From: Diadema antillarum
Taxonomy: Eukaryota
Direction of reading: 5' to 3'
NCBI RefSeq assembly: GCF_040938485.1
Contig: NW_027271016.1
Location: forward strand, 1,844,436 to 1,908,435
Length of the DNA stretch: 64,000 nt
Shown: in pieces, positions 146 to 64,000 of the stretch
How positions within the stretch are numbered: position 1 is the first letter of the stretch
How the letters are laid out: each line of letters opens with the position of its first letter
Notes under the pieces: generated by a model
The model's database searches: none
Told to the model about the DNA's origin: nothing
Seen by the model: the letters and a program-made list of their open reading frames with translations, nothing else
Position numbers and translations under genes: made by a program

Positions 146-222
146 ATCCATCGGGATTCGAACCCGAGACCTCCGGATGCTAGCCCGGTGCTCTAACGAC
201 TGAGCTATAGAAAGCCCTAGTT
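146..222 (-). pseudogene. tRNA-Ala(AGC)-like sequence: tRNA pseudogene or tRNA-derived SINE head
   Basis: Minus-strand read GGGCTTTCTATAGCTCAGTCGTTAGAGCACCGGGCTAGCATCCGGAGGTCTCGGGTTCGAATCCCGATGGATCC. It has a canonical D-arm (TAGCTCAGT..TAGAGC), a 7-nt anticodon loop CTAGCAT (AGC) and a perfect T-arm TCGGG-TTCGAAT-CCCGA. The 5' GGGCTTT cannot pair with the 3' TGGATCC, and the anticodon stem is imperfect, so it is unlikely to be a functional tRNA. Confidence 0.5.
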
Positions 223-3569: not shown

Positions 3570-5265
3570 TCTTCAATCAAACTATATATATTTTTTTTAC
3601 ATATTGCACAAAATGTTGCCTTTGAGGACATAAACTTTGATACTTACAACTTAAAATAAATTGTTTACCTAATAATATTATGAAATTGTATGAAAAAACA
3701 AAATCGTTCCTCGGATGTATAACACCATATAACACCTTTTGACATGAAAACAATTGCAAGGAATCAATTTTACTTTTTTCCTCTTTAACCAATGATTCCC
3801 AGAATACTGACACCTTCCGACAATTAAAAAACAGATGTTCTATTGTCTCCGGTTCACTTTTACAAAAGGAACATCTTGAGTCATCTTTTCTCCCTATTCG
3901 AACAAGCCACGAATTAACGGGGATCAAATTATTCAGTATCTTATATTGCGTTATTCTTAATTTTGTCAAACTGGCAGGTAATTTGAAAAGAGATTGAACA
4001 TCTTCAAGTCCAATGTCATACATAACGTCAAAACGATCAAAAACACTAGATTTTCCAGGGTTATTCAAGTGCAAATATATATTGTATAAATGCTTTGTTG
4101 TTACGTTATGTAATTCCAACCATCTACCCTGAACCCAGATTAAAGGAATAATACTCAGGGGTTTAATAAAGGGGTGATAGTTTTGACGAAGAAAAAAAGC
4201 TTCCACTCACTTGGCATCTTCTTGAAGCAATCAAGAAGAGTGAAATACTGAGTAAACTGTAAACCTTTACCCTTACAATCCTTCCAACGCAGAGGTCGGC
4301 CGTACTCATCTAACATATCAGTACCTTCAAAAAACCTTTCTCTACTATGTTTATTAAACATAGACTTCCCGTGAAACAAAATGTATTTATTATTCCAGAT
4401 TATTTGATTGGGTATGCTTAATTCTCTGTTCTGAAGGAGGGACCACGTTTCTAATACCTCTAAAAACCACCGTGAAACATTAATCTTTAACTTTGAAACA
4501 TCAAAGTTGCAGAAGAACAAAAATTCTCCTCCTACAGATGCTAACAAATTCAAACAAATGGATTTCCATCCTTTTGAACATGACCCAAATAACCTCTGCA
4601 CCCATTTTATTTTTTGAGCTTGCATCATTGACTTTAAACAGCACATTTTCAAACCTCCCTCCTCATAATCTTTTACTAAAACATCGCGCCTTATTCTATC
4701 TGGGCCTCTCCAAATAAATTCATAAATAACTTTATTCACGTCATGTATAAAAGAATCTGGCACTGAAACTATACTTGCGATATATAGCAACTGAGATAAA
4801 GCATAAGTCTTAACAATCTGAATTTTCCCGTAGAGGGATAAATCTCTGAATCTCCACCTATGCAGTTGTGATTTAATATTCATCAAAATTCTTTGTAATT
4901 GCGCCTTCCGGTCGTGAAAAGAATACGAAATATCTATTCCTAAAACAGTGAGAACAGATACAAATTCTACATTCCTAAATTGTTGCACGTCCGTCTTAGG
5001 TGCAGTAGTAAACACCGATGGACCAATTCGCATCACTTTTGTCTTATCATAATTAATTGATAAAGACGAACAGATAGCAAAATCATCTAAAATCTTTGCA
5101 AGATTAAGAAAACATTGATCATTTGTTAAAAAAACTGTGATATCATCAGCATACATAGAAAGTTTTATTTCCTCCAGTACACTTAACTTAAGCAAAATGT
5201 TTGCTGCGTACCCAGTGCATTTCTTCTCATGTCTAAAACCCAACCAAGATTTATGAACCAATGTT
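3570..5265 (-). mobile_element. 5'-truncated non-LTR retrotransposon (LINE) ORF2 fragment: RT plus C-terminal Cys-rich domain, frameshifted
   Basis: ORF 4155..5261 (-) has RT motifs including YADDITVF. ORF 3577..4206 (-) in an overlapping frame has the C-terminal C..C...HLFFNC zinc-knuckle-like motif. It sits inside the 4-kb ASIC intron. Confidence 0.8.
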
Positions 5266-14564: not shown

Positions 14565-14609
<45 letters not shown>

Positions 14610-14612
14610 GAA
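14565..14612. repeat. (CAA)n microsatellite
   Basis: caacaacaacaa x16. Confidence 0.9.
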
Positions 14613-14639
14613 GCACATTAGTACTCAAACAAATTATAT

Positions 14640-16160
14640 ATCAAATTGCTGGATCCACTTACTCACATATTCAACCTTTCCATACTGTCTGGAAAATGTC
14701 CCAATTCTTTAAAGATTGCTAAGGTAAACCCAGTGTTTAAGAAAGATGATTCTTGTCAAATTAGTAATTATAGACCAATTTCTATTCTTCCTAGTATTTC
14801 CAAAATTCTTGAAAAAATGATATATGATAGGTTTTATAAATTTTTGCATGATCATGCAGTTTTGAATTTACATCAATATGGTTTCCGAAAGAATTATTCT
14901 ACAGATTTGGCTTTGGTCCAGTTGTATGATCAAATTACAAACGCAATGGCAAATAGAAAACATGTTATAGGAGTTTTTATGGATTTATCTAAGGCGTTTG
15001 ATACGTTACAACATGATATTTTACTTAAAAAGTTACAGTTTTATGGTGTTCGCGGTGTTGCACTCTCGTGGTTTAGGGACTATGTATCATGTAGACAGCA
15101 ATATGTTATACATGATGACATGTCGTCAAATATTTTACCGATAAAATGTGGTGTGCCCCAGGGCTCAATATTAGCCCCCCTTCTCTTTTTGTTATATATC
15201 AATGATATTGTTAATTCGTCGTCTATATTAACATTTATGTTATGCCGATAACACGAATATTTTTTATTCCCACGATAATATAGAAACGTTGGTATCTACA
15301 CTTAATGCAGAGTTACCAAATGTATCAAACTGGTTTAAGAATAATAAATTATCACTTAGTATTGATAAAACAAATTATATTTATTTTAAGCATATGAAAA
15401 CTCACACAGATGATCTTGTAGATAATATTAGGATTGATAATGTATTTCTTGAACGTAAAAGTTCTATTAAGTTTTTAGGCATTTTTATTGATTAAAACCT
15501 AACCTGGAATGAACATATACGTTATGTTACAACCTGTATTTCTAGAAATATAGGTGTTCTTTCAAAGATGAAAAGTTATCTTCCTGAACATACTCTTTTT
15601 ATGCTTTACAATATTCTTTAATCCTACCATATATTATGTATTGCAATCTAGTGTGGAGTACAAGTTCAAAAACTAAACTCAACCCTATTTATTTACTACA
15701 AAAGAAAGCCGTTCGCATCTGTACTGGATCACAATACTTAGCCCACACCAGTTCACTTTTTTATCAGTTAAAAACACTGAATATATTTGATATAAATACA
15801 TTACATTCTTTGCTTTTTATGTTTAAGTATTTGAACAACTTACTTCCAAACATTTTTCACGATTTCTTTAAACTGAATTATACCGTTCATTCATATCCCA
15901 CTCGTAATTCGCAAAATGTTCATTTAGTAAATCCCAGATTATTAATTGCACAAAAATCTATAAGACATGATGGACATGAATACACTCCCAGATTATGTTA
16001 AATCATGTAAAACTTTATATTCTTTCAAGGATAGATTGAAAACTACATTACTGTCAATTTACAATCTATGAATATAGCATTTGAATATTTATTTTGTTTG
16101 GTTTGATCACATTTCTTTTCCTGTAAATTGGATTTAAAACTACAATAAATATACGCAATG
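14640..16160 (+). mobile_element. Degenerate CR1/L2/Jockey-type LINE 3' portion (RT and C-terminal domain, frameshifted, internal stops)
   Basis: ORF 14646..15251 has RT blocks ..NYRPISILP.., GFRKNYST, FMDLSKAFDTLQH and GVPQGSILAPLLFLLYINDI. YADN(T) appears in a shifted frame at ~15241. ORFs 15289..15495 and 15636..16001 continue the C-terminal domain. It lies just downstream of the PARP4 stop. Confidence 0.8.
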
Positions 16161-18842: not shown

Positions 18843-18869
18843 CCATTCGTATCATCCAAAGGTTCTTAC

Positions 18870-20137
18870 ACTGCTCTGCCGGTGCAAAATCCTGGTGACG
18901 TCCTCGGCGCTCAGCTGCTTTCGGCGGACAGTGAAAGGAAACCAAAGCGCGGAGACCTCTCGCTCTGGCTTCCTCTTGGGTTCTTCCTCTCCTCTAGAGT
19001 AAGAATCTTCCAGAAGATATAAATCATCGGCGGCGGCTGCCTTATCATCCAAAGCAGCAAACATCATGTCTTCTGCCACTGTTACTCGTGAGGGCAATCC
19101 ACTCTCAGCTAGTTCTCGCGTAGGCTTCTCATACTCCTCAATGGGTTCCCAGTACTCCTCCTCATCATCCTCACTCTCCTCATAGTATGACATACCTCTT
19201 ATGCCTTGTGTTTCTAGAAGACCCCCAGCATACGGTACATCACCTATTCTATCACGGAGTAATTTTTCTCTTCTGCCTTCGTCATCTCGTTCTGCTACCA
19301 GCGAATGTGGTAGTTGTCTCCGTGTAGAAGAAGTTAATAGAGGCGGCGGCGGAGGCGGCGGCGCCGGCGGTGGCGGCGCTATCATCGCGGCGGGGATGTC
19401 ATCACCCCCCTCCGCTATGAAATATGTTGACTCATCAAATGCGGGGGGAGGGGGCGGTGTTGGTTGCTTGGTCGATCTCTTCATGAGTTGCTCCGGCTGT
19501 GGCGGTGGCAATCCACCTGCTGGTGTTGGCGCTGGTGGCACCGCCCCTGGTAATCGCCTTGGCTCTACATATCCGAGGTAACGGGACCCGTATCCGAGCG
19601 ATGGTACTGGTGGTGGTGGTGGTGGTGGCACCGCTCCTGCGTCTGATGTTCGTTTTCGTAAAGGAAGCCGGCTCGGCAAATCTAGCCCAGATTTGAGGCT
19701 CTTGTCAAAGGCGCTGAATTGCGCGGCGCTGTCAGGAAGGCGGTCGGATTTCTCCTCCAGATCGTGAAGTCTACTCCCTCTTTCACGCAGTTCACTGGCA
19801 TCAGTGGGGATATCTATATCGCGAAAACTCGCGGGAATTTCACGTTGCTTCTTTTTCATTGGCTTCGGCTTCCTTTTCTTTTTCTTTTTTGATTTCCAGA
19901 AAGAAAATGACGGCAGCCCCAGTGCGAATCCCCGTTTTATCACTGCCCGTTTACGTGTGTCCATCTTTAGACTATCGGTTTTCAAATAATCCCTCTCTAT
20001 ATCTATCGACATGTCAATCGCCATGGATCGAAGGCGAGCTATCTCGTCATCTAAGTCAGTAAGTGGTGTGGGAAGTGGTTTGGGCGTTGGTTTGGGCCGT
20101 GGTATCATAGGTGTCACTGGCACTTGAGTAGCCTCGT
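18870..20137 (-). CDS. PARP4: PARP4 large proline-rich exon (422 codons)
   Basis: Acceptor ccttattgcag|AC in phase 1 and donor AGT|gtaaga in phase 0. The continuous ORF (track 18852..20123) reads ..KKKKKRKPKPMKKKQREIP..PPPPPPPVPSLGYGSRY..PPPPAPPPPPPPLL..EESEDDEEEYWEP... It occupies the position of the large low-complexity P/S-rich exon of human PARP4 between the vWA tail and the MVP-binding C-terminus. Confidence 0.65.
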
Positions 20138-20529
20138 CTGCAATAAGGATGATGGTTACATTGGTTAAAAAATATGCTTGTTTCGTCCCACGTATTTCTG
20201 ATTTTCACGTCTGTTAAGACAATCATAGCATAGATTTATCAAATGACTAATGAATCACATTAATATCAAGGTTAATTCTATTGCATTAAAAGTTTTTTTA
20301 TATGTGGTGGCAAAGATGAGACGCCCTAATTGTTCACCCGAGCCACACCACAGTGATGCTTGTTCATAATCAGCCTTTCACATTTACATTATTGTTATCA
20401 ACAGAAAATGTTTTAAACATAGTTAATCACCTCAATTCTCTCCCTCTCTTTGTCTTTTTATAAACGGATAGTAAATAAAGAAGTATATGTATATACATAT
20501 ATGAATTAATATGTATATTACACATTTTA

Positions 20530-20603
20530 CACATTTACAATATATATATATATATATATATATACATTTAAATTCATACGTATATCACACATTTTATACA
20601 TAT

Positions 20604-20648
<45 letters not shown>

Positions 20649-20652
20649 CAAT
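20530..20652. repeat. (AT)n microsatellites inside a duplicated ~60-bp unit
   Basis: acaatatatatatatatatatatacatttaaattcatacgtatatcacacattt is repeated with long (at)n runs. Confidence 0.85.
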
Positions 20653-21349
20653 TTAGCACGATACCATGACTTCTATTAGAAATAAATTACTGATACACGT
20701 ACTATGTTTTGAAGAAACCTATCTCAAATAATAAATGAGCCCTTTCTGCAATGATACTGCATTCATGGGCCTGTTATTTTTTTTTCTCGTCAAAATCTGA
20801 AATAAAAATCGACCCTTTCCATAACTGGGCCATCCACTAATGGGGTCAATACCTGGACTTCCCGGATGCACAGCTTGTGGTTGACCCTTCGTCATGACGT
20901 CAGACAGTCTGCAAAAATGAATACCAACAGCATGTGATTACATGATTGCATAAGAAAATATACGATAGCAAAATAAGATGCAGAAATTGCGCAAGTTGAT
21001 AACCTTTAGATTTAACTACATTATACTACGAGGAGACTGTGTTGTTTTTTTCTCACTTTGATAGTCAGGGCCGAGAAACAATTGATTTAAAGGCTGACAA
21101 AACAAGAATTTCATCGTAAATTTTCCACAAATCGCAGTGAAAGTTCTTCATTGTAGTTGTGAAATTCTATCATTCTAAAAATAAGTAAACCAGTTGTAAA
21201 CACTAACATGAAACCAACCAACTTTGATCACTAAGAAAAGATAAACTGATAGGGTTATCACTTACTTCATGTTAGCGTAGTGTGTCTCTATTTTATCAAC
21301 AATACTGAAGCAGAACTGAATCATTCATTGGCCTTAGCGGAAATTAGAT

Positions 21350-21600
21350 GCCGATTGAAAATGACTTTTAAACATTTGAACGAATTTTACATGGACGCAC
21401 TAAACAAAATGAAATAAAAATTCTTTAAAGTCTACTTACACTTTAGAAAACTGCTTAGTTCTCTTTTGCAATCCCTGATGACGATTGAAAAGGACTTTTA
21501 AACATGTGAATGTACTTAATATGAACGCATTTGAAAGCGGTTTTGAAGTTTACTTACACTTTAGAAAACTGCTTAGTTCTGTTTTCCAGTCCCTCAGAAT
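21350..21600. repeat. Tandem repeat, ~125-bp unit x2
   Basis: gattgaaaa.gacttttaaacat.tgaa.g.a.tt.a.atg.acgca... tttacttacactttagaaaactgcttagttct.ttttc.a.tccct occurs twice in tandem. Confidence 0.8.
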
Positions 21601-22439
21601 CATCATCTAGTTTTCATGCGTTTCCATGAGATGTAATACCAGTCAAACACAAATCATAATAGAAAAACAACAACAACAACAGCTGTGAATTATCCACCCA
21701 AGGGGGTTATTCATTACTCTTGTAAACCTGCCTACATATAAATTGATAAACGTTGCTTCTAAAACTTTGGATTGAACTTAATAGCATTTATTTGATTTTA
21801 TCAAATTTCATTTGAAACATGATTTAACCTCAGGTTGATAATTAACCTAATGTTCATCCACCTAAAGATAAGGCATAATACAGTGTATACATTTTGCAAA
21901 TTATATCGTACAACAATTTGTAAGAAGTACAATACAAAGTACATGTACGAATGAATGTGATAGATAATGAGAGAAATAATGCATAATTTGCCATGATGAA
22001 AAAAGTAAATTATGGCGATGGGAAAAAAGTGATCTATCCTGAAAAGCGGAGCTTGTAAGACTTGGATTATGCACTCGAAAAACAACAAATGCCAATAACA
22101 TTTATATACATATCCTATTTGTGTACGTTTTTCACTTGGGTTGATTTAATTCAACATATTGATTTGGCAAATGACCATGCTAATGCTACAATTTCCATTT
22201 TTGTCTATTTGGGGGGTTTCATTTTACATCTGAGAAGATGGCTGAATAGCCCATGTTCAGCTGCACTAGCTGGTCTACCGTGAGATCCAATTGGATGTTT
22301 TCCAATAACCCAGTTATTTTGAACATTAATTTCACGTGTATATGTATATCTACATCTATTGTTGCATACGTTGTATTTTTTCCCCTTAAACTTTTATCAA
22401 CCAAAATGTGTTATTGAAAATGAAATCTCTTTTGATAAC

Positions 22440-22735
22440 TGGATTGAATTCATTTCAAATTGAACTCTCTAAAAAAATGAGTGAAAATATTCACTCTTAT
22501 AGGAGTGAATACAAAAAAGAGTGAATTTAGAGTGAAATTGGAGTGAATTTTGAGTGAAAATGCTTATTTTCACTGATTTTGGAGTGACCTCAGGGATCAC
22601 TCCAAGATTTAGGAGTGATCCCTGAGGTCACTCCAAAACGAGTGAAAATGAACATTTTCACTCAAAATTCACTCCAATTTCACTCTAAATTCACTCTTTT
22701 TTGTATTCACTCCTTTAAGGGTGAATATTTTCACT

Positions 22736-22791
<56 letters not shown>

Positions 22792-22800
22792 GAGAGAGAA
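22440..22800. mobile_element. Foldback (hairpin) element with GAGTGAA subrepeats, followed by a T58 homopolymer and (GA)n
   Basis: Left arm 22470..22605 (gagtgaaaatattcactcttataggagtgaatacaaaaaagagtgaatttagagtgaaattggagtgaattttgagtgaaaatg...) is the reverse complement of right arm 22612..22745. The centre ggagtgacctcagggatcactcc.aagatttag.ggagtgatccctgaggtcactcc is itself palindromic. A poly-T run spans 22737..22795. Confidence 0.8.
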
Positions 22801-23414
22801 CTAATGTGAGGCGGGCCACTTAATGTACCCTGCTTTTTGCGATGAATGAATCAAGCGGAATCTCTACGTGCATGAGTTGTGACTCTTTCACACACAGGGC
22901 CTCCATTTTATGTCCAATAACCTATTCAAGGGATAATATTTTGGCGTTTACTGGAGGGGGCCGTATGATTACACAGAACATTGCTCAATTAGACTTGGGA
23001 ATTGACCCTGTGTCATTTGGATCTGGAGACCCCTACCGACTGAGACATATCACCACCTTGAACAATGGAAATAAATGCACCAAGGATCAAACGAACGTGA
23101 AAATGGACACTTGGAGCTTTGCTACAGATGTGGGAGAGTTTGCCTTCAGGAATATCCTAAATAATAAAAGTGATGCGGAATCTTAAAAGGTAGTCTCAAC
23201 TGCGATAATATACATCATATTCCCCTCTTAAGCCTACGTTACAATCTCTGTAGGAGACTGGAAGGGTTTGTGCATGCTTGTCACAAACGAAGTTATATCG
23301 AATATAGCAACTTGATGATTTGCTGTGATTTCATTTGCGTATTGTGGCCTCATTGGCTCCTGGAAATGATTCTCTATTTCATCAATACAAGTTATACAAC
23401 ATGAAGTGTCTTAC

Positions 23415-23484
23415 CGCTCACAACTGGGGGCGTAGCTACAGCAGGTCGGAGCCACTCCATCGCCTGAACTGCGTCACCTTTGAC
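23415..23484 (-). CDS. PARP4: Putative small PARP4 exon (23 codons plus 1 nt)
   Basis: Strong acceptor cacgttacag|GTC and donor AGCG|gtaaga. The translation VKGDAVQAMEWLRPAVATPPVVS(D) starts in phase 0 and ends in phase 1. It supplies exactly the phase needed between the flanking exons (24664..24813 ends in phase 0; the large exon starts in phase 1). Similarity to human PARP4 is weak. Confidence 0.5.
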
Positions 23485-24099
23485 CTGTAACGTGAACTTA
23501 GAGATCGCCAGGCAGCACTGGTATCGAACAGAAATGGAGATTTACAACAGCATGAGGCAATGAAAGTGCAACGAATGACGCCATGTACGGTTTGAATGGA
23601 AAAGTAAGATAGGAAGATAAGAGAGGAGATGTGTGTAGATTACACAAAATCTCAGATTTTTGTGTTTAGCGTGTGACAATAATTAGAGAGGGGAAGGGGA
23701 TGGTGATACAGCAAACATTTATCTGCAAAACGTTATTTATAAACCTCAGGTCACTACGCATAGAGGTAAAGATAATCATATCCTTAAAACATGAATGGTG
23801 TTCAGAGCAGGATTTCGATAGAAATACTGCGTCTGTCTTATACCAGATATCGTATTCTATTTACCACTGATTATGGTAATAATAAAAGTAGAGCAAGAAT
23901 ATAAAATACAAATTCATTCAGCGTATTGACGTTGATTGTGATAATGACGTGGCAATAGGATTAATTGTAGTAGTAGCAGATCTCCTAGGGGCACCAGTGT
24001 AGCGATTATGATGTAAAAAATGATAGCAGTAACTTTGATGAAGATGATAACAATGACAAAGATGCTACATGTACGTACTACTACAACGGTCGCACGTTA

Positions 24100-24440
24100 C
24101 GAGACCGACACCCACGAGTCATACAGCTCACAAGTCATACAGCCCATGAGTTATACAGCTCACGTTTCATACAGCCCAATAGTTAGACACTATGCTAACA
24201 AGGCCCACGAGACCGACACATTAAGCCCCCTGCTGAATCTGTCGAACTCGTGGGTTGTTTTTACCTAGTGTCGAACTCATGGACTGTATGACTCGTGAGC
24301 TGTATGACTCATGGGCTGTATGACTCGCGAGCTGTATGACTCATGGACCTGTTTTCAGTGTCGAACTCGTGGGCTGTATGACTCGTGAGCTGTATGACTC
24401 ATGGACCTCTTTTCAATGTCGAACTCGTGGGCTGTATGAC
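24100..24440. mobile_element. Foldback element built from 16-bp subrepeats (gagtcatacagc / gctgtatgactc)
   Basis: Left block 24100..24200 contains cacgagtcatacagctcacaagtcatacagcccatgagttatacagctcacg. Right block 24240..24440 contains tandem ctgtatgactcgtgagctgtatgactcatgggctgtatgactcgcgag.. in inverted orientation. Confidence 0.7.
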
Positions 24441-24663
24441 CTCAACGGTTTACTGTTAATACTGATAAAAATAATTAATCAAATTTAAGATTACAACATT
24501 TCATTTCTTTGCCAATGTTTATCTTTATATGAAAAGTGAAAGAGAGATAAAGAGAAAAGGTGGAAGGAGAGAAAGATGGTTGGAAGAAGAAGGGAAGGAG
24601 GAAGGAAGAAGAGGTATGCACGGTCTTTCCCGGATGACTTTCACGAACAAGAAGAGTCCTCAC

Positions 24664-24813
24664 CGTATGAAACAGGTGGTGAAAGTTGGGAAGGTTGTCT
24701 CGAGCGGCGTTGAGGGCGCCATGATAACACTTCTCGGCAGACGCATAGGAGAAATGAGACTGCGCAGCCCTGGCGCGTTTCAACAGGCGGCCAATCATCC
24801 CCTCTGTTGATTC
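24664..24813 (-). CDS. PARP4: Putative PARP4 exon (50 codons)
   Basis: Acceptor ctacggacag|GAA and donor ACG|gtgagg. The translation ESTEGMIGRLLKRARAAQSHFSYASAEKCYHGALNAARDNLPNFHHLFHT runs phase 0 to phase 0, consistent with the upstream exon. It lies in the region corresponding to the basic RLSKRKHRKIPFSKRK segment of human PARP4, with weak similarity. Confidence 0.5.
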
Positions 24814-25746
24814 CTGTCCGTAGAAAGCCATCCCATAAGTATCGTATAAAGTTCCAGACGATTCAAAGTGGGTGCAAAGAATACAAAAGTAGTGTAAAAG
24901 CGTCTGTTGTCAACGCCAGTTTACTTTACCATTGATTACACGCAGTTCCAGTTCTGTTTCAGTTTAGTTTATTTCACATTTCTCAAAAATTAACGATACA
25001 TTATGCTTAAATACAAAACATGCACAAAAATACGTCTCACAAAAATATACTCGGAATATTGTACATTGACGGCCATTTTGCTGATGTTGCAGGTGCCAAA
25101 GAGATGAGAGAATAAAAAAATTTAAATCTACGAAAGGCTACAGTTTGTATTGCAGGTTTTCAAGGAAATGTGAGTTGATGCGTAGCAAAATACGTAGGTC
25201 GGAAATGATTTGAAACTGACCAAAAGGAATATTCATAGGAAAAATGCATTACATTGTCATGAATATTCACAAGAAAAGCGGTGTTACATTGTGCCTTGAA
25301 AAAAAAGAATCAATACTGACGTGATACGACGAACTCTCTTCTCGATAATAGAAATGTTCCGATAAAAAAATTACAAAAGTCAAAACCTCTACAATGTGGC
25401 AACTGAGAGCACAATATAGTGTCTGCATCAACATCATTATAAATTTTTGATATTATTCTTTTCTTCCTTATGGTCTTCTCCCCACTGTATACAAACAATA
25501 TAATATTTCCCAGAAAGGAGAAAAGGAAGTATAAGCCGTAGTTTCATGAAACACATTAGTTATTAGTCGGTAGCGATGTAAGCGCTTCATTATTGCAAAC
25601 AGCAACATCGCCAGTTTGCCCCCCCCCCAAAAAAAAAAAAAAAAAAAAATCCCCATCGTCAACAACAGCATCATCACTGCTATCAGTAACCAATTTTTTT
25701 CGTCTTTTTGTCCTCGTCGCAAACGTGGAGTTACCCCCTCACTTAC

Positions 25747-29696: not shown

Positions 29697-29820
29697 CTGT
29701 AACAGAGGAAGAAAGTGAAACAAAGAGAAAACAGAGTGAACGACTGTAAAGGGGGATGATAGAGATCGAGAGGAAGGGTGGTGGAATTGCTCCGAGAGAA
29801 GGAAAGCAGTGGATCCTCAC

Positions 29821-30091
29821 CTCACGCCAAACGTGAAAATCCTGTTCTCGTGTCGATGTTCGGCAGCGACGAGCAACGTGAACTTCTCGTTCGTCAGATG
29901 ACCGTCCGACACGAGGAAGACGTTACGCGTCCTGTTCTTCGCCGGCGGCAGCAGCGAGAGAGAACGCAGAGGGCGCCACGCTTCCGATCCGCCGCCGCCC
30001 ACAGATGACGAACTCCTTTCTATGAAGTCCACGGCCTCGTCAATCTGGTAGCGATGGTTGCGCATGACGCTCGGGAAAACCTCGGTAAAGT
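29821..30091 (-). CDS. PARP4: PARP4 exon (vWA domain)
   Basis: Acceptor tactttgacag|AC and donor GTGAG|gtgagg. The translation (D)FTEVFPSVMRNHRYQIDEAVDFIERSSSSVGGGGSEAWRPLRSLSLLPPAKNRTRNVFLVSDGHLTNEKFTLLVAAEHRHENRIFTFGV aligns to the human segment ..YLSLLYPARGSRNILLVSDGHLQDESLTLQLVKRSRPHTRLFACGIG. Confidence 0.85.
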
Positions 30092-30509
30092 CTGTCAAAG
30101 TAGGAGACGTGGTAATACAAGATGAATACATTATAGGCCTATATGAATCAACAAGGCAGAGGAATATAAGTTTACCACCTTTGAATCAATGAAAACCTAT
30201 ACCAACTACCAACACATAGTGCTATGTTGGATCTACATATGTACTGAAAATGCCACTGTTATCACTTAACACTTTCAAGTTGCAGCTCACAGAATACTTG
30301 AGTTTGGTACCTAGCTTTAACCAGCCTATTGCTGAGATTCAAACGTATCATTCACAATCATTTGATCACCTTGTTGAAACAAAAGATATCGCTTATCTTT
30401 TTTTAACCGGAAATTTTATCTTTGAGTCTTACAAAATCATTTGTATCTATCTATTAAATCCTTGTCTTTAACACCATGTCGATCACCAGGCAGTGGAATG
30501 AAGACATAC

Positions 30510-30699
30510 CTGTACCGAATGCAATCACATTGAATTGGCTTTGGCTCGGCAACATCTCAAGGATCAGTTTGCTCAGCTTCTTGGCGTCCTCCTTCGGCTG
30601 CCCTTTCATAGACGTGGAACAATCAAGGAGCAGAACTACTTCCGGGTCAACAATGGGCACGAACGTCGGAAACTCGGGATAAAAGACTGCCATGCTGGC
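30510..30699 (-). CDS. PARP4: PARP4 exon (vWA domain MIDAS region)
   Basis: Acceptor tttccacag|GCC and donor ACAG|gtatgt. The translation ASMAVFYPEFPTFVPIVDPEVVLLLDCSTSMKGQPKEDAKKLSKLILEMLPSQSQFNVIAFGT aligns to the human segment ..ESEVIICLDCSSSMEGVTFLQAKQIALHALSLVGEKQKVNIIQFGTG, including the DxSxS metal-site motif. Confidence 0.85.
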
Positions 30700-31260
30700 C
30701 TGTGGAAATAAAACGATCATTATGAAGATAAGCCATTACAATTAACACTTTGATGCAAAGCACTTTCATTCAAGAAGCACTGCTGCCTTTTATTTACGAA
30801 TTATTCGTCAAACACTGTCGTGAGTTTCGGCTTTGAAATTGCTTTATTAGCTAAAACTAATTAACAACTCTAGAGAGAAAATAGGACTATGAACCGCTGA
30901 CGGTTGGCAGGCAAGAAAGGAAAAGAACTGGACTGAGGGATAGAAAGTGCAGGCTTCAGTCCTTGAATTTATCTTAGAACTTAGACGATTCATGTCAAAT
31001 CTCTCGGAAGGAATATTCCCTTTCTGCTTTCTCACACCATTCATCATTGTAACGATCTTTTGAATGCATGTAATGTTTCTCAAAAAGTAATTGATAAAGA
31101 ATATGCTTTCAAGCATTGTTTGGGTTTGTAGGTAAACTACAGTAGGAATCATGCGACTATTATCAGTGATGATGTGCATGAGAATTTTGACACAAAGTTT
31201 GTTATGAGAAGAACCAAAGTTCGCAAATGGATACGATCGAACTCTGGCCAAGGAACTTAC

Positions 31261-35754: not shown

Positions 35755-36260
35755 CTGCAAAGAACGGGAAAAAAATCCGTATACATGGTAAAAGCGATAT
35801 TTTCCCGTTTGTAGTGCACTTGCAAATATGCAGTACAGACGACTCTGAGACAGTATGGGTAATGGAAGTCTGTTATCATACTTTGTAGTTGTATTGTTCC
35901 TTTGGCATGACTTTAATGTTGCCTGCTTTGAATTTGGGTAACATGATATCTGCCCCTGTATGATAGCAGTGGGTTCAAATTCAAGTATAGATATATCAAT
36001 GTATTACAGTATTCGGGATCGTAGCATAGAAAATGGCGTACACATAAATACTTCACTAGTTGGTACTTTGCATGTTCAGTATATTCACTCATTTATCATG
36101 CACTGATGTAGGCTCTACAATGTATGCATGATATATTATGCATGTATGTGTGTGTGTATGTATACATGTATTTCGATCAATTCATGTTCGTCACCACATT
36201 GTAAATGCCTTTCCGATAAATAGCATTAGAACGTGAGAAATCATTCTAAAACTATTTTTA

Positions 36261-36445: not shown

Positions 36446-36894
36446 CTACAAGGAATTCAATCACAAATGTTCATGGACATCAGGGGGCATTTCATGAAGC
36501 ATTTTGTCCGACAAAGTTGTCGGACAAATTTGCTCTCAGCCACTCACATGCAAGGATCTTAATAGCTTGTAACAGTATGTCGGAAAAATATCCGACCAAA
36601 ACGTTTCATGAAAGGCCCCTCCCCCGATGATAAAGTATATTCAGCGGTGACACAACAGTTGATTCTGCGACAATACAATGTTCCGGTCTTATTTTCTCCA
36701 AGGACTAAAGATTAGGGTTAGGGTTGTGATAAAGTTCTACAACTGTAGGTTTAGTTTGATATGAGGGTTAGGATTAGGGTTAGGGTTAGGGTTATGTTGG
36801 TAGGAAGAATTCAATTTTAGCATACCGTGCAGAAATATCATGGGAGTATATCTCGCAGGAGCAAATGTCACGGAACCATTTTCAACTCATTTTT

Positions 36895-60354: not shown

Positions 60355-63300
60355 ATGGGACCAAAGTGACACACCCATTCAAGCAGACACACCCATTCAA
60401 ACACATCTCAAGATGGAATGTGATGCTGAACGTTGTGATTCATCACATGCAGGCAGTGCAGTAGCCAATGCAACTCCTGGTGGAAGCTTGCCAGCGGCAG
60501 TCACTATACAGCATATGGAAGTAGATAGCAATTCTTGTCAGGTTTCCCATGGTTCAGGGACTGACTTGGAGAAGGATGGAACATCATTTGCTTCAGAAGT
60601 TGAGCAGGATAGAAATGTAGTGCCAGAATGCAATGTCCCAGACAAAAGGGAAAGCCAGACAGCAACTGTCGAGGAGCAGGATCAAGTAGGGTCTGGGCAT
60701 TCAAACTCTGCTCTATTGGACACTGTTGAAGAGGGAATGGACACAGGAGGTGATTTTCCCAGTCTGTCTCATGAAAACAGTGAACAAACAGTTTGCGATA
60801 CAGAGAGAAATCTTGCAATTTCAAGTAGTGTTGAGGAAGCCACAGAGCAAATGGAGGTAAGTTCCACTTCCATTGGAGAGCAACCAACATGTTTGCAGCT
60901 GACCACAGCTGATGGATGTTCTGAGATAACAGTGACTGCAGAGGCAAAGCTTGTTAGTGAAGAAACAGCAACTGATGTGGTAGTGAGTGTTTCACCTGGT
61001 AAAGAAACTGGAATGGCGAAAAGTGTGCTCGTAGAAAGCTCATTGTTAAGTTCCTGTTTGAAGGTGAAAGGACATGGAGGTTTGGATACTGCAACTGAGT
61101 CTCTCAAAGGAGCAAGCAGTGTTCCACCAGCAGAACTTGCAGAACAAGAAGTCGAGAACTTGCAGCCAGGTGATGATGGGTCTGCAGAATGCATATCTTC
61201 TGCCAGGAGTGTTGATACTTGTAAGGTAGTGACGGACAAGATCCAAAGCATAAACAACTCAAATAAAGAAAGAGTGCTGCATGACCCAAACTTTGACGGG
61301 GAGTGCAGTTCAGCAGAGAAAGCAAGTGGTGCTACTTCATACACAGCTCAGACAATACATCCTTCCCAGGCCAATGGAGGAAAGAGTGATAAACTTGTAG
61401 AGCACACAGAGTGTCCAAAAGAAAGAGAAGCAAGTGATGAGGAAGTATCATGTGAAACACCCCAGAACCTTGATATGGCGCATGAACCATTGGTTATACC
61501 AACAAACACGAGTGCTGGAGCAAATGTTTTTGCAACCGAGAATGTTGGCCCTTGCTCAGAACTACCAAGCTTGAGATTAGTGAGCTCATTTGAAAAACCA
61601 TGTGTGTCAAACATTTATGAAGCAGGACCATCACAGGCCTTACTTGTGCCAGAGACAGACTTGCAAAATGATCATAAACCACATACATCGATAGAGATGG
61701 AAGCTACAAAACCGCAAGGGGTGGAAAATAGTTGTGAACTTGATACTCAATGCAGGGGAGCTATTGTCCCCAATAATGCAACAAAAGAAAAGTCTTTCAG
61801 TGCAAACCCATTAAGATCAGATACTGCAGTTATTGCTAATGATACCATCCCAGAAAAAGATGAAAGCGTGTCTGAAACTGCACTGGCCTGGAAAGGAGAA
61901 AAACAAGAAACACCAAAGACTGTAGAATCAGGGGAAAATACAGTGAAAACTGATCTTGTCGCCAGTGAAAACATGGACATAGAAGAATGCCCCAACAACA
62001 GAAAAGAATATGCCCCAGAGGTAGCTGCTGGTAATTGTGGGAGAGGATATACTACAAGTGGCAATCAGGTAGATGAAAGTTACTTGGCAAAAATGGAAGT
62101 GACTGAGTCAGAGAAGGATGATTATATCATCGATGTGAGTCAAGAAATGGGGGAGAGATCAATTCAAGAGGTACCAGCGGTTAGCAGTTCTGCACCAGGT
62201 AAACAGAATATGGTGGAGGTTTCAGTCAGTGAAAAGGATATGACTGACACAGCATTAGAGAATATGTGCTGTAACTCTTTTGAAAAAGAAATTGATAAGG
62301 AAGAAACAAAGGACATTGACTCAGAGAATAATAAAGCTGCCACCCCTACTCTAATCCCTGACATTCCACACAGTGCTGACAAGATATGTGAAGAATCAAA
62401 CGAAGACATTCCACTGCAAGAGAAAATGGATAGCCTGCCACTCAGTTCCAAAGTTGCTGGCTCACCAGAAATAATTCCACCTGGTTGTGCATCATCTACT
62501 CCCACCCCACCAGAACTGCAAAGGGACATGCAAGATGAGAGATTGCATGGGGATGAATTTGCCCCAGGAGCATTGATAGAGTCACCAGACAAACCTGAGG
62601 GAGAGTCACAGGAGATGGAACAGAGCCCATCCTGTCCAGAAGCTGATGGTACAGGATTTGCAGAAGGAACATCAAATGGTGCAGGATTTATAGAAGGAAC
62701 ATCAGATGGCACAGAAAAAACTGAGTCAGCGCACACAGGATGGAGTGCAGGAAATGAAAATGAAAGATGTCCAGAAATGCCAACATCCAGAGTTTTAAGC
62801 ACTCCAAACAGCCCACCCTCAGAACTCCAAAGAACCTCTACAGGAGACAAGACAGTGGAGGAAGTTAAAACAATGAATTATGACACATGCACCGATTTGC
62901 CTAGCGTAGCAGCCCCGGCAGGGGACAGAGATGTGGAGTCACGATCACATCCCGATCCTCCTGTCCTAGCTCCAGAGACGATAAGAGGTGGAACATCTTC
63001 TTCCTGTGAAATTTCGGCTGATGAACCAATGGAATGCACTCCTGGCTTGCAGGACAGCACACCAGAAGAGGCTCCTGAAGACTCTCCTGATGAAGTAACA
63101 ATACCACGGCTAGAAGCAGAAACAAAAAAGACTCAGAATGACTCTCCTGAGGATAGTAAAATCGTAAATGATGATACAGAAATGCTGGAACAATGTGCAA
63201 GGGATGGAACAGCAGTAGCAGTACATGAACCTGTATTGAGCCAAAGTGGTGCAGAAAGAATTCAAAGGGATCAAGACAATGCAGCTCAGCATTATGAGAG

Positions 63301-64000
63301 TGTCAGTTCAGTGCCTGAAATGGTCAGTGAGAGTCAAGAGAGGGTCGAGCCAAGCAGTAAAATCATAACTACACAGTTCACCGGAAGCTCCGAGCGCCAG
63401 AGTGAAACATTGCCCAAGTCAAAATTATCTGAAATGATGACAAGAGAGGATATAGAGCAAGAGATGGAGCTATCTCATGAAGAAATCCCTTCACAATTGG
63501 TGGATGTTTCAAAGAAAGATGTGGACAATGATAATAGTCAAAATTCTGAAAATGAAGTCTCAGATTTTGAGGCAGTTAGGCCTGGAGAAAGAATTGCTGA
63601 AAACCTTGGAAACACAACTGTGCTTTCTGCTCAACAAGAGGAGATGCAACTTAGTTCTGAAATATCTGATGAGACAAGAAAGGTGGATGAACAGAGTATT
63701 AGCAATAAAATTGATATTTGTGAAGACAAGTCTCAAACATTAGATGCTGTAACAGAAAATGAGAATGATGAAGACAGAGCTGAGCAAGGAGAAAAGTTTG
63801 ACTCCTCATCCAATCTGTCAAAGCATCCTGTTAGTGATGGTGATGTTGCATTCTTAACTTGTGTAGAAGTTGAACATCCTAGTGATGTTGACGAAGAAAT
63901 GCAATCTTGGACAGAGACTTGTGAAAGCAAACCTCAAGTGTCAGAAACTGCAACAGAAAATGAGAATGATCAAAATAGAGATGAGCAAGTAGAAAAGTTG
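60355..64000 (+). CDS. Very large coding exon (at least 1215 codons, open at the window end) of an unidentified gene encoding an acidic Ser/Glu/Thr/Asp-rich low-complexity protein
   Basis: Strong acceptor tttttttctttctttcatcatcag|ATGGGACC at 60353..60354. A single frame then runs without a stop from 60355 to 64000: ..WDQSDTPIQADTPIQTHLKMECDAERCDSSHAGSAVANATPGGSLPAAVTIQHMEVDSNSCQVSHGSGTDLEKDGTSFASEVEQDRNVVPECNVPDKRESQTATVEEQDQVGSG ... TENENDEDRAEQGEKFDSSSNLSKHPVSDGDVAFLTCVEVEHPSDVDEEMQSWTETCESKPQVSETATENENDQNRDEQVEKL. The last ~250 nt show the start of a tandem protein repeat. The supplied ORF track lists only antisense ORFs here (60504..63930, minus), as expected for a purine-rich sense strand, and lacks this frame because it has no in-window stop. 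Confidence 0.75.

What the first reader, a model, noticed from the sequence alone, without database searches (positions are those of the whole stretch)
22440..22800. Near-perfect ~135-bp-arm hairpin with GAGTGAA subrepeats, abutting a T58 run and (GA)n
This is an unusually clean palindrome: the arms are reverse complements over more than 130 bp, built from about 12 GAGTGAA units. The centre is itself a 23-bp palindrome. A 58-nt poly-T tract and a (GA)n run follow immediately. The architecture (inverted arms made of short tandem subrepeats) matches classic foldback transposons, and it resembles the element at 24100..24440 (16-bp gctgtatgactc units). Long hairpins with adjacent poly-T are fragile or recombinogenic sites and could be polymerase-III-like terminator plus hairpin structures.
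Basis: seen in the sequence. Interest (0 to 1): 0.5.

Follow-up and report, generated by a model that had tools for sequence, protein, structure and literature searches.

The report
Palindromic hairpin transposon copy (MITE)
The long hairpin is one copy of a small, non-coding, fully palindromic mobile-DNA family found many times in related animal-like genomes, and the poly-T and GA runs are overgrown parts of its right end, so it is an ordinary repeat and not a special gene or terminator.

Summary
The palindrome is real. The arms are 22471-22603 and 22612-22744: 133 nt, 6 mismatches, an 8-nt loop, DNA fold -142 kcal/mol, z = -26.8. The T run is 51 nt, not 58. It lies inside the right arm: CTCTCT-A7 on the left pairs with T7-AGAGAG on the far side of the run.

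I translated the arm and searched 1.84 billion proteins. This recovered spurious ORFs that read through other copies. Ten further full or partial copies turned up in ENA assemblies ERZ26222911 and ERZ17093956. They are 79-87% identical to the window copy over its whole length. They share the termini TACTCT[C/G]TAAA...TTTA[G/C]AGAGTA, the central sub-palindrome and the GAGTGAA arrays.

Two of the nine other copies tested have abutting 9-10-bp target-site duplications (9/10 and 8/9 matches). The window copy has none. GAGTGA cores are nearly invariant (96/108 columns, against 105/172 for spacers). The two arms co-vary: 17 pairs changed on both sides.

Verdict: a foldback-type, non-autonomous DNA transposon (MITE), probably Mutator/foldback-like. 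The T51 and (GA)5 runs are private slippage expansions. There is no support for a Pol III unit, a viral ITR or a locally made palindrome. Ordinary; low interest.

The parts
22463..22470 (+). Left terminus, AACTCTCT (family consensus TACTCTCT)
   Evidence: Aligns with the conserved left end TACTCT[C/G]T of copies A, B, C, F and G. Position 1 is A here instead of T.
22471..22603 (+). Left arm of the palindrome. It contains the A7 run, 7 exact GAGTGAA/TTCACTC units and 3 degenerate units.
   Evidence: IR I1, 133 nt, 95% complementary; 6 mismatches; motif positions.
22519..22558 (+). Tandem array of 4 GAGTGAA units at an 11-bp period (putative protein-binding sites)
   Evidence: TRF period 11, 3.7 copies; family D2. 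The unit number varies between copies while the GAGTGA cores stay invariant.
22581..22603 (+). Inner 23-nt sub-palindrome GGAGTGACCTCAGGGATCACTCC (left copy)
   Evidence: D6, I25. It is among the most conserved blocks in the family alignment. Its translation, GVTSGIT / IPEVTPK, is what recovered the other copies.
22604..22611 (.). Asymmetric 8-nt loop AAGATTTA at the centre of symmetry
   Evidence: The length and sequence of this spacer differ between copies.
22612..22744 (+). Right arm of the palindrome (mirror of 22471-22603), including the mirrored sub-palindrome 22612-22634
22657..22697 (-). Mirrored tandem array of 4 TTCACTC units at an 11-bp period
   Evidence: TRF period 11; family D4
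22738..22788 (+). T51 run: a private expansion of the subterminal T tract of the right end (T6-T11 in other copies; A7 on the left of this copy)
   Evidence: Run length. Its position inside the IR is shown by I16 and by the family alignment columns 297-348. No second TTTTTTAGAGAG occurs elsewhere in the window.
22789..22800 (+). Right terminus, AGAGAG(AGAG)AA (family consensus AGAGAGTA), with (GA) expanded from 3 to 5 units
   Evidence: Alignment A2; flank printout

Best explanation
Window 22463-22800 is one copy of a multi-copy, non-coding, almost fully palindromic DNA transposon family, that is, a foldback-type MITE.

Shown:
- The whole element, ends included, is homologous to at least ten other full or partial copies on independent contigs.
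- All copies share the termini TACTCT[C/G]TAAA...TTTA[G/C]AGAGTA.
- Two of the nine other copies tested are bracketed by 9-10-bp direct repeats of flanking DNA.
- The GAGTGA cores are far better conserved than the spacers between them.
- The two arms change together across subfamilies.

Inferred:
- The element is moved in trans by a cut-and-paste transposase that makes 9-10-bp staggered cuts. This size is typical of Mutator-like and foldback elements.
- The transposase binds the GAGTGAA sites. These occur in both orientations and as an 11-bp-phased array (about one helical turn) in each end.
- The arms are kept symmetric by intrastrand hairpin formation followed by mismatch correction or gene conversion.
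- The T51 and (GA)5 tracts arose by replication slippage of the short subterminal T tract and the terminal AGAGAG in this copy only.

At this locus the element is most likely an old, immobile insertion in non-coding DNA. It has mutated terminal bases and no recognisable TSD. Its only likely local effect is hairpin or cruciform proneness.
For: Recovery of other copies:
- A profile of the two arm translations hit 12 proteins at E <= 0.001. Eleven of them (P0130-P0140) carry the arm motifs, that is, they are ORFs read through other copies.
- Their contigs contain homologous palindromes.
- blastn gives 79-88% identity to the window element over about 300 bp.
- nhmmer gives E-values from 1e-98 to 1e-14 for the nine clear copies and 3e-06 for the weakest.

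Family features:
- Alignment A2 shows conserved ends, a conserved central sub-palindrome and conserved arrays. The window copy is 79-87% identical to the others.
- TSDs: copy A has TTTTGTATCC / TTTTGTATCA (9/10). Copy H has TACTGAAAG / TACTGAAAT (8/9). Both abut the termini directly. By my own calculation the chance of each is about 1e-4 or less.
- Motif columns are 96/108 invariant against 105/172 for spacers (Fisher p = 2.8e-7).
- Covariation: 93.5% of cells are paired. 17 pairs changed on both sides, against 8.0 +/- 1.8 in shuffles and 0-2 in slid controls.
- The subterminal A/T run varies in every copy: A7/T51, A9/T10, A12/T7, A5/T11.
- There is no coding capacity in or near the element.
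- About 4 extra copies lie in the ~58 kb flanking the 5 ascertained copies. This implies high copy number in that genome.
Against: - The window copy has no TSD at any length from 2 to 12 bp. The only shared flank word is GAACT, which overlaps the low-complexity ends.
- Seven of the nine other copies also lack a long TSD. The 9-10-bp figure therefore rests on two insertions.
- No autonomous partner or transposase was found within +/- 8 kb in the window or in ~69 kb of related loci. The superfamily assignment is an inference from TSD length alone.
- Only one copy lies in the 64-kb window. The source genome itself could not be searched.
- All other copies come from unnamed ENA assemblies, most of them at low coverage.
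- Both terminal dinucleotides of the window copy are AA instead of TA.
Confidence: 0.8

Rival explanations
1. It belongs to the same mobile family, but that family is a Tc1/mariner-derived (Stowaway-like) MITE that duplicates only a TA target. On this view the outermost TA...TA of every copy is the TSD and not part of the inverted repeat.
For: Eight of the nine other copies tested are bounded by TA on both sides. Seven of the nine have no longer TSD. In the window copy both flanking dinucleotides are AA. That is a direct repeat, not an inverted one, which is what a 2-bp TSD at a non-TA site would look like.
Against: Copies A and H have 9/10 and 8/9 matching flanks that abut TACTCT...AGAGTA directly. 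Two such matches among ten copies are not expected by chance. Nor are they explained by a TA duplication. The ends do not resemble the usual CAGT-type Tc1/mariner ends (my own knowledge, not tested).
Confidence: 0.15
2. It is a unique, locally generated palindrome. It could have arisen by inverted duplication through fold-back priming or template switching of a segment carrying an 11-bp minisatellite. It would be comparable to human PATRRs and would not be a transposon.
For: The window copy has no TSD, there is no second copy in 64 kb, and the flanks have no empty-site counterpart. Long near-perfect palindromes of this kind exist as single loci (PMC7999016).
Against: Homologous elements with the same outer boundaries sit in unrelated flanking DNA on at least six other contigs. 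AT content is 67%, not above 90% (PMC7999016). The centre holds two mirrored sub-palindromes around an asymmetric loop, not a single priming hairpin.
Confidence: 0.02
3. It is a transcribed hairpin-RNA gene (hpRNA, miRNA-like or Pol III-type unit) whose T run acts as a terminator.
For: The hairpin is very stable and is followed on the + strand by a long T run. MITE-derived hairpins are known sources of small RNAs in other organisms (PMC3086885, PMC8862332; abstracts only).
Against: No tRNA, SINE or Pol III-type RNA was found. Rfam hits reach 23-46 bits against gathering scores of 41-211. The T run is homologous to a T6-T11 tract inside the inverted repeat of every copy, and its mirror is A7. 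No expression data are available.
Confidence: 0.03
4. The T51 run is the poly(A) tail of a retroposon on the minus strand that inserted next to the hairpin. Alternatively, its length is an assembly error.
For: LINE fragments are common in the window. Homopolymer lengths are error-prone in long-read assemblies (general knowledge).
Against: The 6 nt after the run (AGAGAG) complete the inverted repeat with CTCTCT on the left. They also align with the family terminus. No displaced copy of the terminus exists further right. Nor is there a TSD for a retroposon: the nearest TTCACTC-like word, at 36080, is a chance 15-mer. The exact length of 51 cannot be verified without reads.
Confidence: 0.05

Closest known systems
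Foldback transposons (Drosophila FB, sea-urchin TU, Tetris, Galileo)
   Same: The inverted repeats make up nearly the whole element and contain short tandem subrepeats. The element is non-coding. TSDs fall in the 7-10-bp range (Tetris 8-10 bp, Galileo 7 bp; PMC4079207, PMC3573991; here 9-10 bp in two copies). The number of subrepeats varies between copies. Copies without matching TSDs are known from recombinant Galileo elements (PMC3573991).
   Different: This element is much smaller: about 250-300 bp, against roughly a kilobase and upwards. It has only 2-4 tandem 11-bp units per arm. It has no middle domain, only a loop of 8 to about 12 nt. No transposase partner is known. There is no sequence similarity to any described element that I could test.
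Hairpin-forming MITEs of animal and plant genomes (general class)
   Same: It is small, AT-leaning, non-coding and multi-copy. It has conserved ends and target-site duplications, and it folds into a single long hairpin.
   Different: Most MITEs have short TIRs around an unrelated core. Here complementarity runs from end to end, and the arms co-vary across subfamilies.
Human palindromic AT-rich repeats (PATRRs)
   Same: It is a near-perfect palindrome a few hundred bp long that should extrude as a hairpin or cruciform. It therefore works like a potential fragile site (PMC7999016).
   Different: PATRRs are above 90% AT, are single loci and share no homology with one another (PMC7999016). This element is 67% AT and belongs to a dispersed homologous family.
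Subterminal repeat regions of cut-and-paste transposons (e.g. Ac/Ds AAACGG hexamers, En/Spm 12-bp motifs; from my own knowledge)
   Same: Many copies of one short motif lie in both orientations within about 130 bp of each end. The motif is conserved while the spacers drift.
   Different: Binding of a transposase to GAGTGAA is inferred, not shown. The superfamily is unknown.

Membership tests
[quoted passage not shown] | Small size and no coding capacity | tested here: met
   The element is 338 bp including T51, or about 290 bp without the expansion. It holds only short spurious ORFs with no Pfam hit.
[quoted passage not shown] | Terminal inverted repeats with family-conserved ends | tested here: met
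   CTCTCTA7 / T7AGAGAG in the window. TACTCT[C/G]TAAA...TTTA[G/C]AGAGTA in copies A, B, C, F, G, H and J.
[quoted passage not shown] | Many dispersed homologous copies in different flanking DNA | tested here: met
   Ten further full or partial copies lie on six contigs of ERZ26222911 and ERZ17093956. In the source genome only the 64-kb window could be searched, and it holds 1 copy.
[quoted passage not shown] | Target-site duplication flanking the copy | tested here: inconclusive
   The window copy has none for k = 2-12. In the family, copy A shows 9/10 and copy H shows 8/9, while seven other copies show none.
Foldback elements (FB/TU/Tetris/Galileo type) | Long inverted repeats that carry internal tandem repeats | tested here: met
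   Each 133-nt arm carries a 4 x 11-bp array. The unit number varies among copies. The scale is far smaller than in the classic elements (PMC4079207).
Foldback elements (FB/TU/Tetris/Galileo type) | Middle domain between the inverted repeats | tested here: not met
   Only an 8-nt loop separates the arms. Related copies have up to about 12 nt.
Foldback elements (FB/TU/Tetris/Galileo type) | TSD of 8-10 bp and mobilisation by a Mutator-like (or P-like) transposase | tested here: inconclusive
   The TSD size fits in two copies (PMC4079207). No transposase was found in the window or in the related loci. A partner cannot be searched for with these tools.
Tc1/mariner-derived (Stowaway-like) MITE | TA target-site duplication | tested here: inconclusive
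   TA bounds eight of the nine other copies tested, but TA is self-complementary and cannot be told apart from the TIR. The window copy has AA/AA. Copies A and H have longer TSDs outside the TA.
PATRR-like unique palindrome | Above 90% AT, single locus, no homology to other loci | tested here: not met
   AT content is 67%. Homologous copies exist elsewhere. The definition is from PMC7999016.
Pol III transcription unit with T-run terminator | A recognisable Pol III-type RNA gene (tRNA-like A/B boxes or a known family) upstream of the T run | tested here: not met
   ARAGORN finds none. Rfam at gathering score finds none here. Relaxed Rfam gives only generic hairpin hits far below threshold. The T run is part of the TIR.
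Viral hairpin terminus (parvovirus-type ITR) or integrated virus end | Adjacent replication or capsid genes, or similarity to viral contigs | tested here: not met
   ORFs of 60 aa or more between 19.7 and 30.7 kb have no viral, helicase or integrase domain. Specific patterns gave 0 hits in IMG/VR.

The most novel reading that the evidence does not exclude
The palindrome may be an active requirement of the family and not a passive by-product. Three findings point that way. Both arms change together across subfamilies (17 doubly changed pairs). The GAGTGA cores are invariant. Symmetry runs from end to end. Together these would mean that the hairpin or cruciform form is itself the transposition substrate, or that one arm is re-copied from the other at each cycle. 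Such a hairpin-templated mode has not been described for eukaryotic cut-and-paste MITEs. Alternatively, the family could be kept as a source of hairpin-derived small RNAs.
Probability: 0.08. Interest if true: 0.6.

Novelty: new member of a known kind. Interest (0 to 1): 0.2.

Why it matters
For annotation, it means this striking structure should be masked as a repeat. It should not be followed up as a gene, a terminator or a unique fragile site. The family is a tidy example of a fully palindromic MITE. It has a conserved 7-mer in phased arrays, co-evolving arms and a hypervariable subterminal homopolymer. That could serve to identify its transposase and to study how palindromic elements keep their symmetry. 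A 133-bp-arm palindrome next to a T51 tract is also a place where assemblies and replication can go wrong, so the local sequence, especially the run length, deserves caution.

Tried and rejected
1. Other copies in the window: blastn and nhmmer found none. The flanks 20500-25500 have no second copy, so no empty site is available.

2. Metagenome scan with GAGTGAAN4GAGTGAAN4GAGTGAA. The 120 loci returned match only the 11-bp array and nothing else of the element. Several are bacterial-looking GGGGAGTGAAA arrays or iteron-like arrays.

3. Viral scans gave 9 array-only hits, then 0 and 0. GTDB genome scans gave 0 hits and then 2 chance bacterial hits.

4. Word-indexed protein search with the arm translation: no candidates. 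The exhaustive profile search then succeeded.

5. Exact-protein look-ups of neighbouring ORFs, aimed at finding the same locus in other assemblies: none on record. The 423-aa proline-rich ORF has no homologue.

6. Organism identification failed. One NCBI record (GCA_949826985.1) is only 53% identical. The LINE at 14608-15862 is 95.6% identical to an ENA contig of ERZ17293316.

7. Literature searches for the motif and for the end sequences returned only unrelated primers and similar matches.

8. Retroposon-tail origin of T51: rejected.

9. Helitron-like reading of the CTAA|T right flank: considered from the sequence and dropped once the family ends were defined.

10. Search for a transposase in related loci: only host-like domains were found, such as Peptidase_M1. 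One call failed because the gene coordinates given for some loci do not translate.

11. P0129, the top hit of the profile search, is an unrelated tandem-repeat ORF.

Full report
**Setting.**
The window looks like a eukaryotic, metazoan-type genome.
- GC content is about 0.38, and there are dozens of microsatellites and a 274-bp satellite.
- It contains LINE reverse-transcriptase fragments.
- It contains VWA-domain exons at 29.8-30.7 kb on the minus strand.
- It contains an interstitial (TTAGGG)-type repeat.

The organism could not be named. One LINE copy is 95.6% identical to a contig of ENA assembly ERZ17293316.

**The observation.**
- The inverted repeat is real and far beyond chance. The arms are 22471-22603 and 22612-22744: 133 nt, 95% complementary, with an 8-nt spacer. 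A direct count gives 6 mismatches.
- As single-stranded DNA the region folds into one hairpin of -142 kcal/mol. Shuffles average -33 +/- 4, so z = -26.8.
- GAGTGAA occurs 23 times in the window against about 10 expected, and 14 of these lie inside the element.
- Each arm holds 7 exact and 3 degenerate units, in both orientations. Four of them form an 11-bp-period tandem array.
- Units in opposite orientation form small sub-palindromes inside each arm. The innermost is the 23-nt GGAGTGACCTCAGGGATCACTCC. It is present once per arm on either side of an asymmetric loop, AAGATTTA.
- The T run is 51 nt, not 58.
- The inverted repeat continues across the run. CTCTCTAAAAAAA (22465-22477) pairs perfectly with TTTTTTTAGAGAG (22782-22794) (I16). 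That 12-mer occurs nowhere else in the window. The poly-T and the GA run are therefore parts of the right arm.

**Finding relatives.**
- Searches of the window, of viral and prokaryotic collections, and one metagenome scan with a motif-array pattern gave only pattern-driven, unrelated hits.
- The useful step was to translate the one open frame that runs through an arm (43 aa). I aligned the two arm versions (A1) and ran the profile against 1.84 billion representative proteins.
- Twelve proteins scored E <= 0.001. Eleven of them contain the same peptide signatures: FGVTSGIT, VIPEVTPKRVK, SLQIHSKFTL and IHSLKSEH.HS. They are gene-caller ORFs read through other copies of the same DNA element. The twelfth, P0129, is an unrelated tandem-repeat ORF.
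- Their contigs were retrieved. They hold homologous palindromes:
  - L135 2919-3215 and 1929-2195
  - L136 2632-2918 and 5170-5481
  - L138 3312-3561
  - L139 6811-6974 and 7135-7373
  - L140 3664-3915 and 9115-9347
  - L137, a right arm only
- The window copy is 79-87% identical to the full copies over its whole length.
- Beyond the five copies that led to the contigs, about four more lie in roughly 58 kb of flanking DNA. The family is therefore abundant in that genome.

**Family anatomy (alignment A2).**
- All copies end in TACTCT[C/G]TAAA...TTTA[G/C]AGAGTA. The window copy has AACTCTCT on the left and AGAGAG(AGAG)AA on the right.
- All full copies are palindromic, with 89.5-97% of positions paired.
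- The GAGTGA cores are nearly invariant (96/108 columns), while spacers vary (105/172 invariant; Fisher p = 2.8e-7).
- The number of 11-bp units differs between copies.
- The subterminal homopolymer differs in every copy: A9/T10, A12/T7, A5/T11, and AAACAAAAAA/TTTTTTGTTT. The A7/T51 of the window copy is the extreme of a family-wide unstable tract.
- The arms co-evolve. On the hairpin structure, 93.5% of cells are standard pairs. Seventeen pairs changed on both sides, against 8.0 +/- 1.8 in shuffles and 0-2 when partners are slid. The covariation score is 0.083 against about 0.015.
- The doubly changed pairs lie mainly in spacers. One example is GAGTGAA-AATA-TTCACTC in the window against -TATG- in copies A to C, mirrored in the other arm in each case.

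**Mobility.**
- With the ends defined by the family, copy A is flanked by TTTTGTATCC | TTTTGTATCA (9/10). Copy H is flanked by TACTGAAAG | TACTGAAAT (8/9). Both repeats abut the termini directly.
- By my own calculation, each match has a chance probability of about 1e-4 or less. These are genuine target-site duplications of 9-10 bp.
- That size matches the 8-10 bp reported for the foldback element Tetris and its proposed link to the Mutator superfamily (PMC4079207).
- Seven other copies and the window copy show no long TSD.
- Copies without matching TSDs are documented for the foldback-like Galileo, where they are attributed to recombination between copies (PMC3573991). That is a possible explanation here, not a demonstrated one.
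- A rival reading treats the terminal TA as the TSD (Tc1/mariner type). It remains possible, but it does not explain copies A and H.
- No transposase was found near the element, nor in about 69 kb of related loci.

**Mechanism proposed.**
- Shown: the element is a dispersed, homologous, non-coding palindromic family with conserved ends. At least two insertions have 9-10-bp TSDs.
- Inferred:
  - It is mobilised in trans by a cut-and-paste transposase that recognises the GAGTGAA sites. The 11-bp phasing puts sites on one face of the helix.
  - Arm symmetry is maintained by intrastrand pairing with mismatch correction or conversion.
  - The T51 and (GA)5 tracts arose by slippage in this copy.
  - This copy is now inert. 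Its terminal bases are mutated, it has no TSD, and its arms are 4.5% diverged.

**Rivals rejected.**
- A locally made, unique palindrome (PATRR-like). This is contradicted by the copies in unrelated flanks and by 67% AT, against the more than 90% that defines PATRRs (PMC7999016).
- A Pol III unit or hairpin-RNA gene. This has no support.
- A viral ITR. There are no viral genes or viral matches.
- A retroposon tail. The terminus follows the T run directly.
- The resemblance to the element at 24100-24440 is architectural only.

**Verdict.**
The element is a previously unlabelled member of a well-known class. I could not check whether it already has a Repbase or Dfam name. Interest is low. The co-varying arms and the conserved phased 7-mer are the only features worth a specialist's second look.

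Noticed in passing
window 24084-24449: A second, unrelated foldback-like palindrome built from 16-bp GCTGTATGACTC-type subrepeats. Its arms are 24112-24226 / 24232-24346, 82% complementary, and the fold z-score is -13. A 58-bp unit is duplicated on the right side. The element is bracketed by a 7-bp direct repeat, CAACGGT (24084-24090 and 24443-24449), which may be a TSD. It has no copy in the related loci.
   Followed up: partly
window ~57003-57239: A third whole-length palindrome (AATCTTCAGC...GCTGAAGATT) with a fold z-score of -20.7 and no clear TSD. Three unrelated hairpin elements in 64 kb suggest a genome rich in such repeats.
   Followed up: partly
L140 9018-9130: A right-end fragment of a family copy (ending ...TTTTTAGAGAGTA) is followed by exactly 9 bp (AATCAGCTG) and then by the left end of a full copy (TACTCTCTAAAAA...). 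This tail-to-head junction has a spacer of TSD length.
   Followed up: no
L023 719-834; L051 628-747; L058 3842-3992; L095 900-1030: Bacterial-looking metagenome contigs carry intergenic arrays of GGGGAGTGAAA 11-mers in inverted pairs. L095 carries an iteron-like TTCACTCAAAT array. These show the same 7-mer at the same 11-bp phase but are unrelated to the window element.
   Followed up: no
window 51890-53825: A 274-bp satellite with 7 copies and 91% matches.
   Followed up: no
window 60314-64000 (+): An open frame of at least 1229 codons that runs off the window end. It is acidic and Ser/Glu-rich and has no Pfam domain. It is probably a giant exon.
   Followed up: partly
window 18852-20123 (-): A 423-aa proline-rich ORF in a GC-rich island (GC 0.46). 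It has no homologue among 5.8 billion proteins and no exact record.
   Followed up: partly
window 29820-30735 (-): Two ORF segments with VWA-domain signatures (VWA_3, E = 9e-10). They are exons of a host gene about 7 kb from the hairpin.
   Followed up: no
window 147-211 (-): A tRNA-like Rfam match (43 bits) that ARAGORN does not call. It may be a tRNA-derived SINE head or a pseudogene.
   Followed up: no
window 3577-5261 (-), 14608-15862 (+), 36764-36794: LINE RT and zf-RVT fragments. One is 95.6% identical to ENA contig ERZ17293316 NODE_496817. There is also an interstitial (AGGGTT)5 telomere-type repeat.
   Followed up: partly
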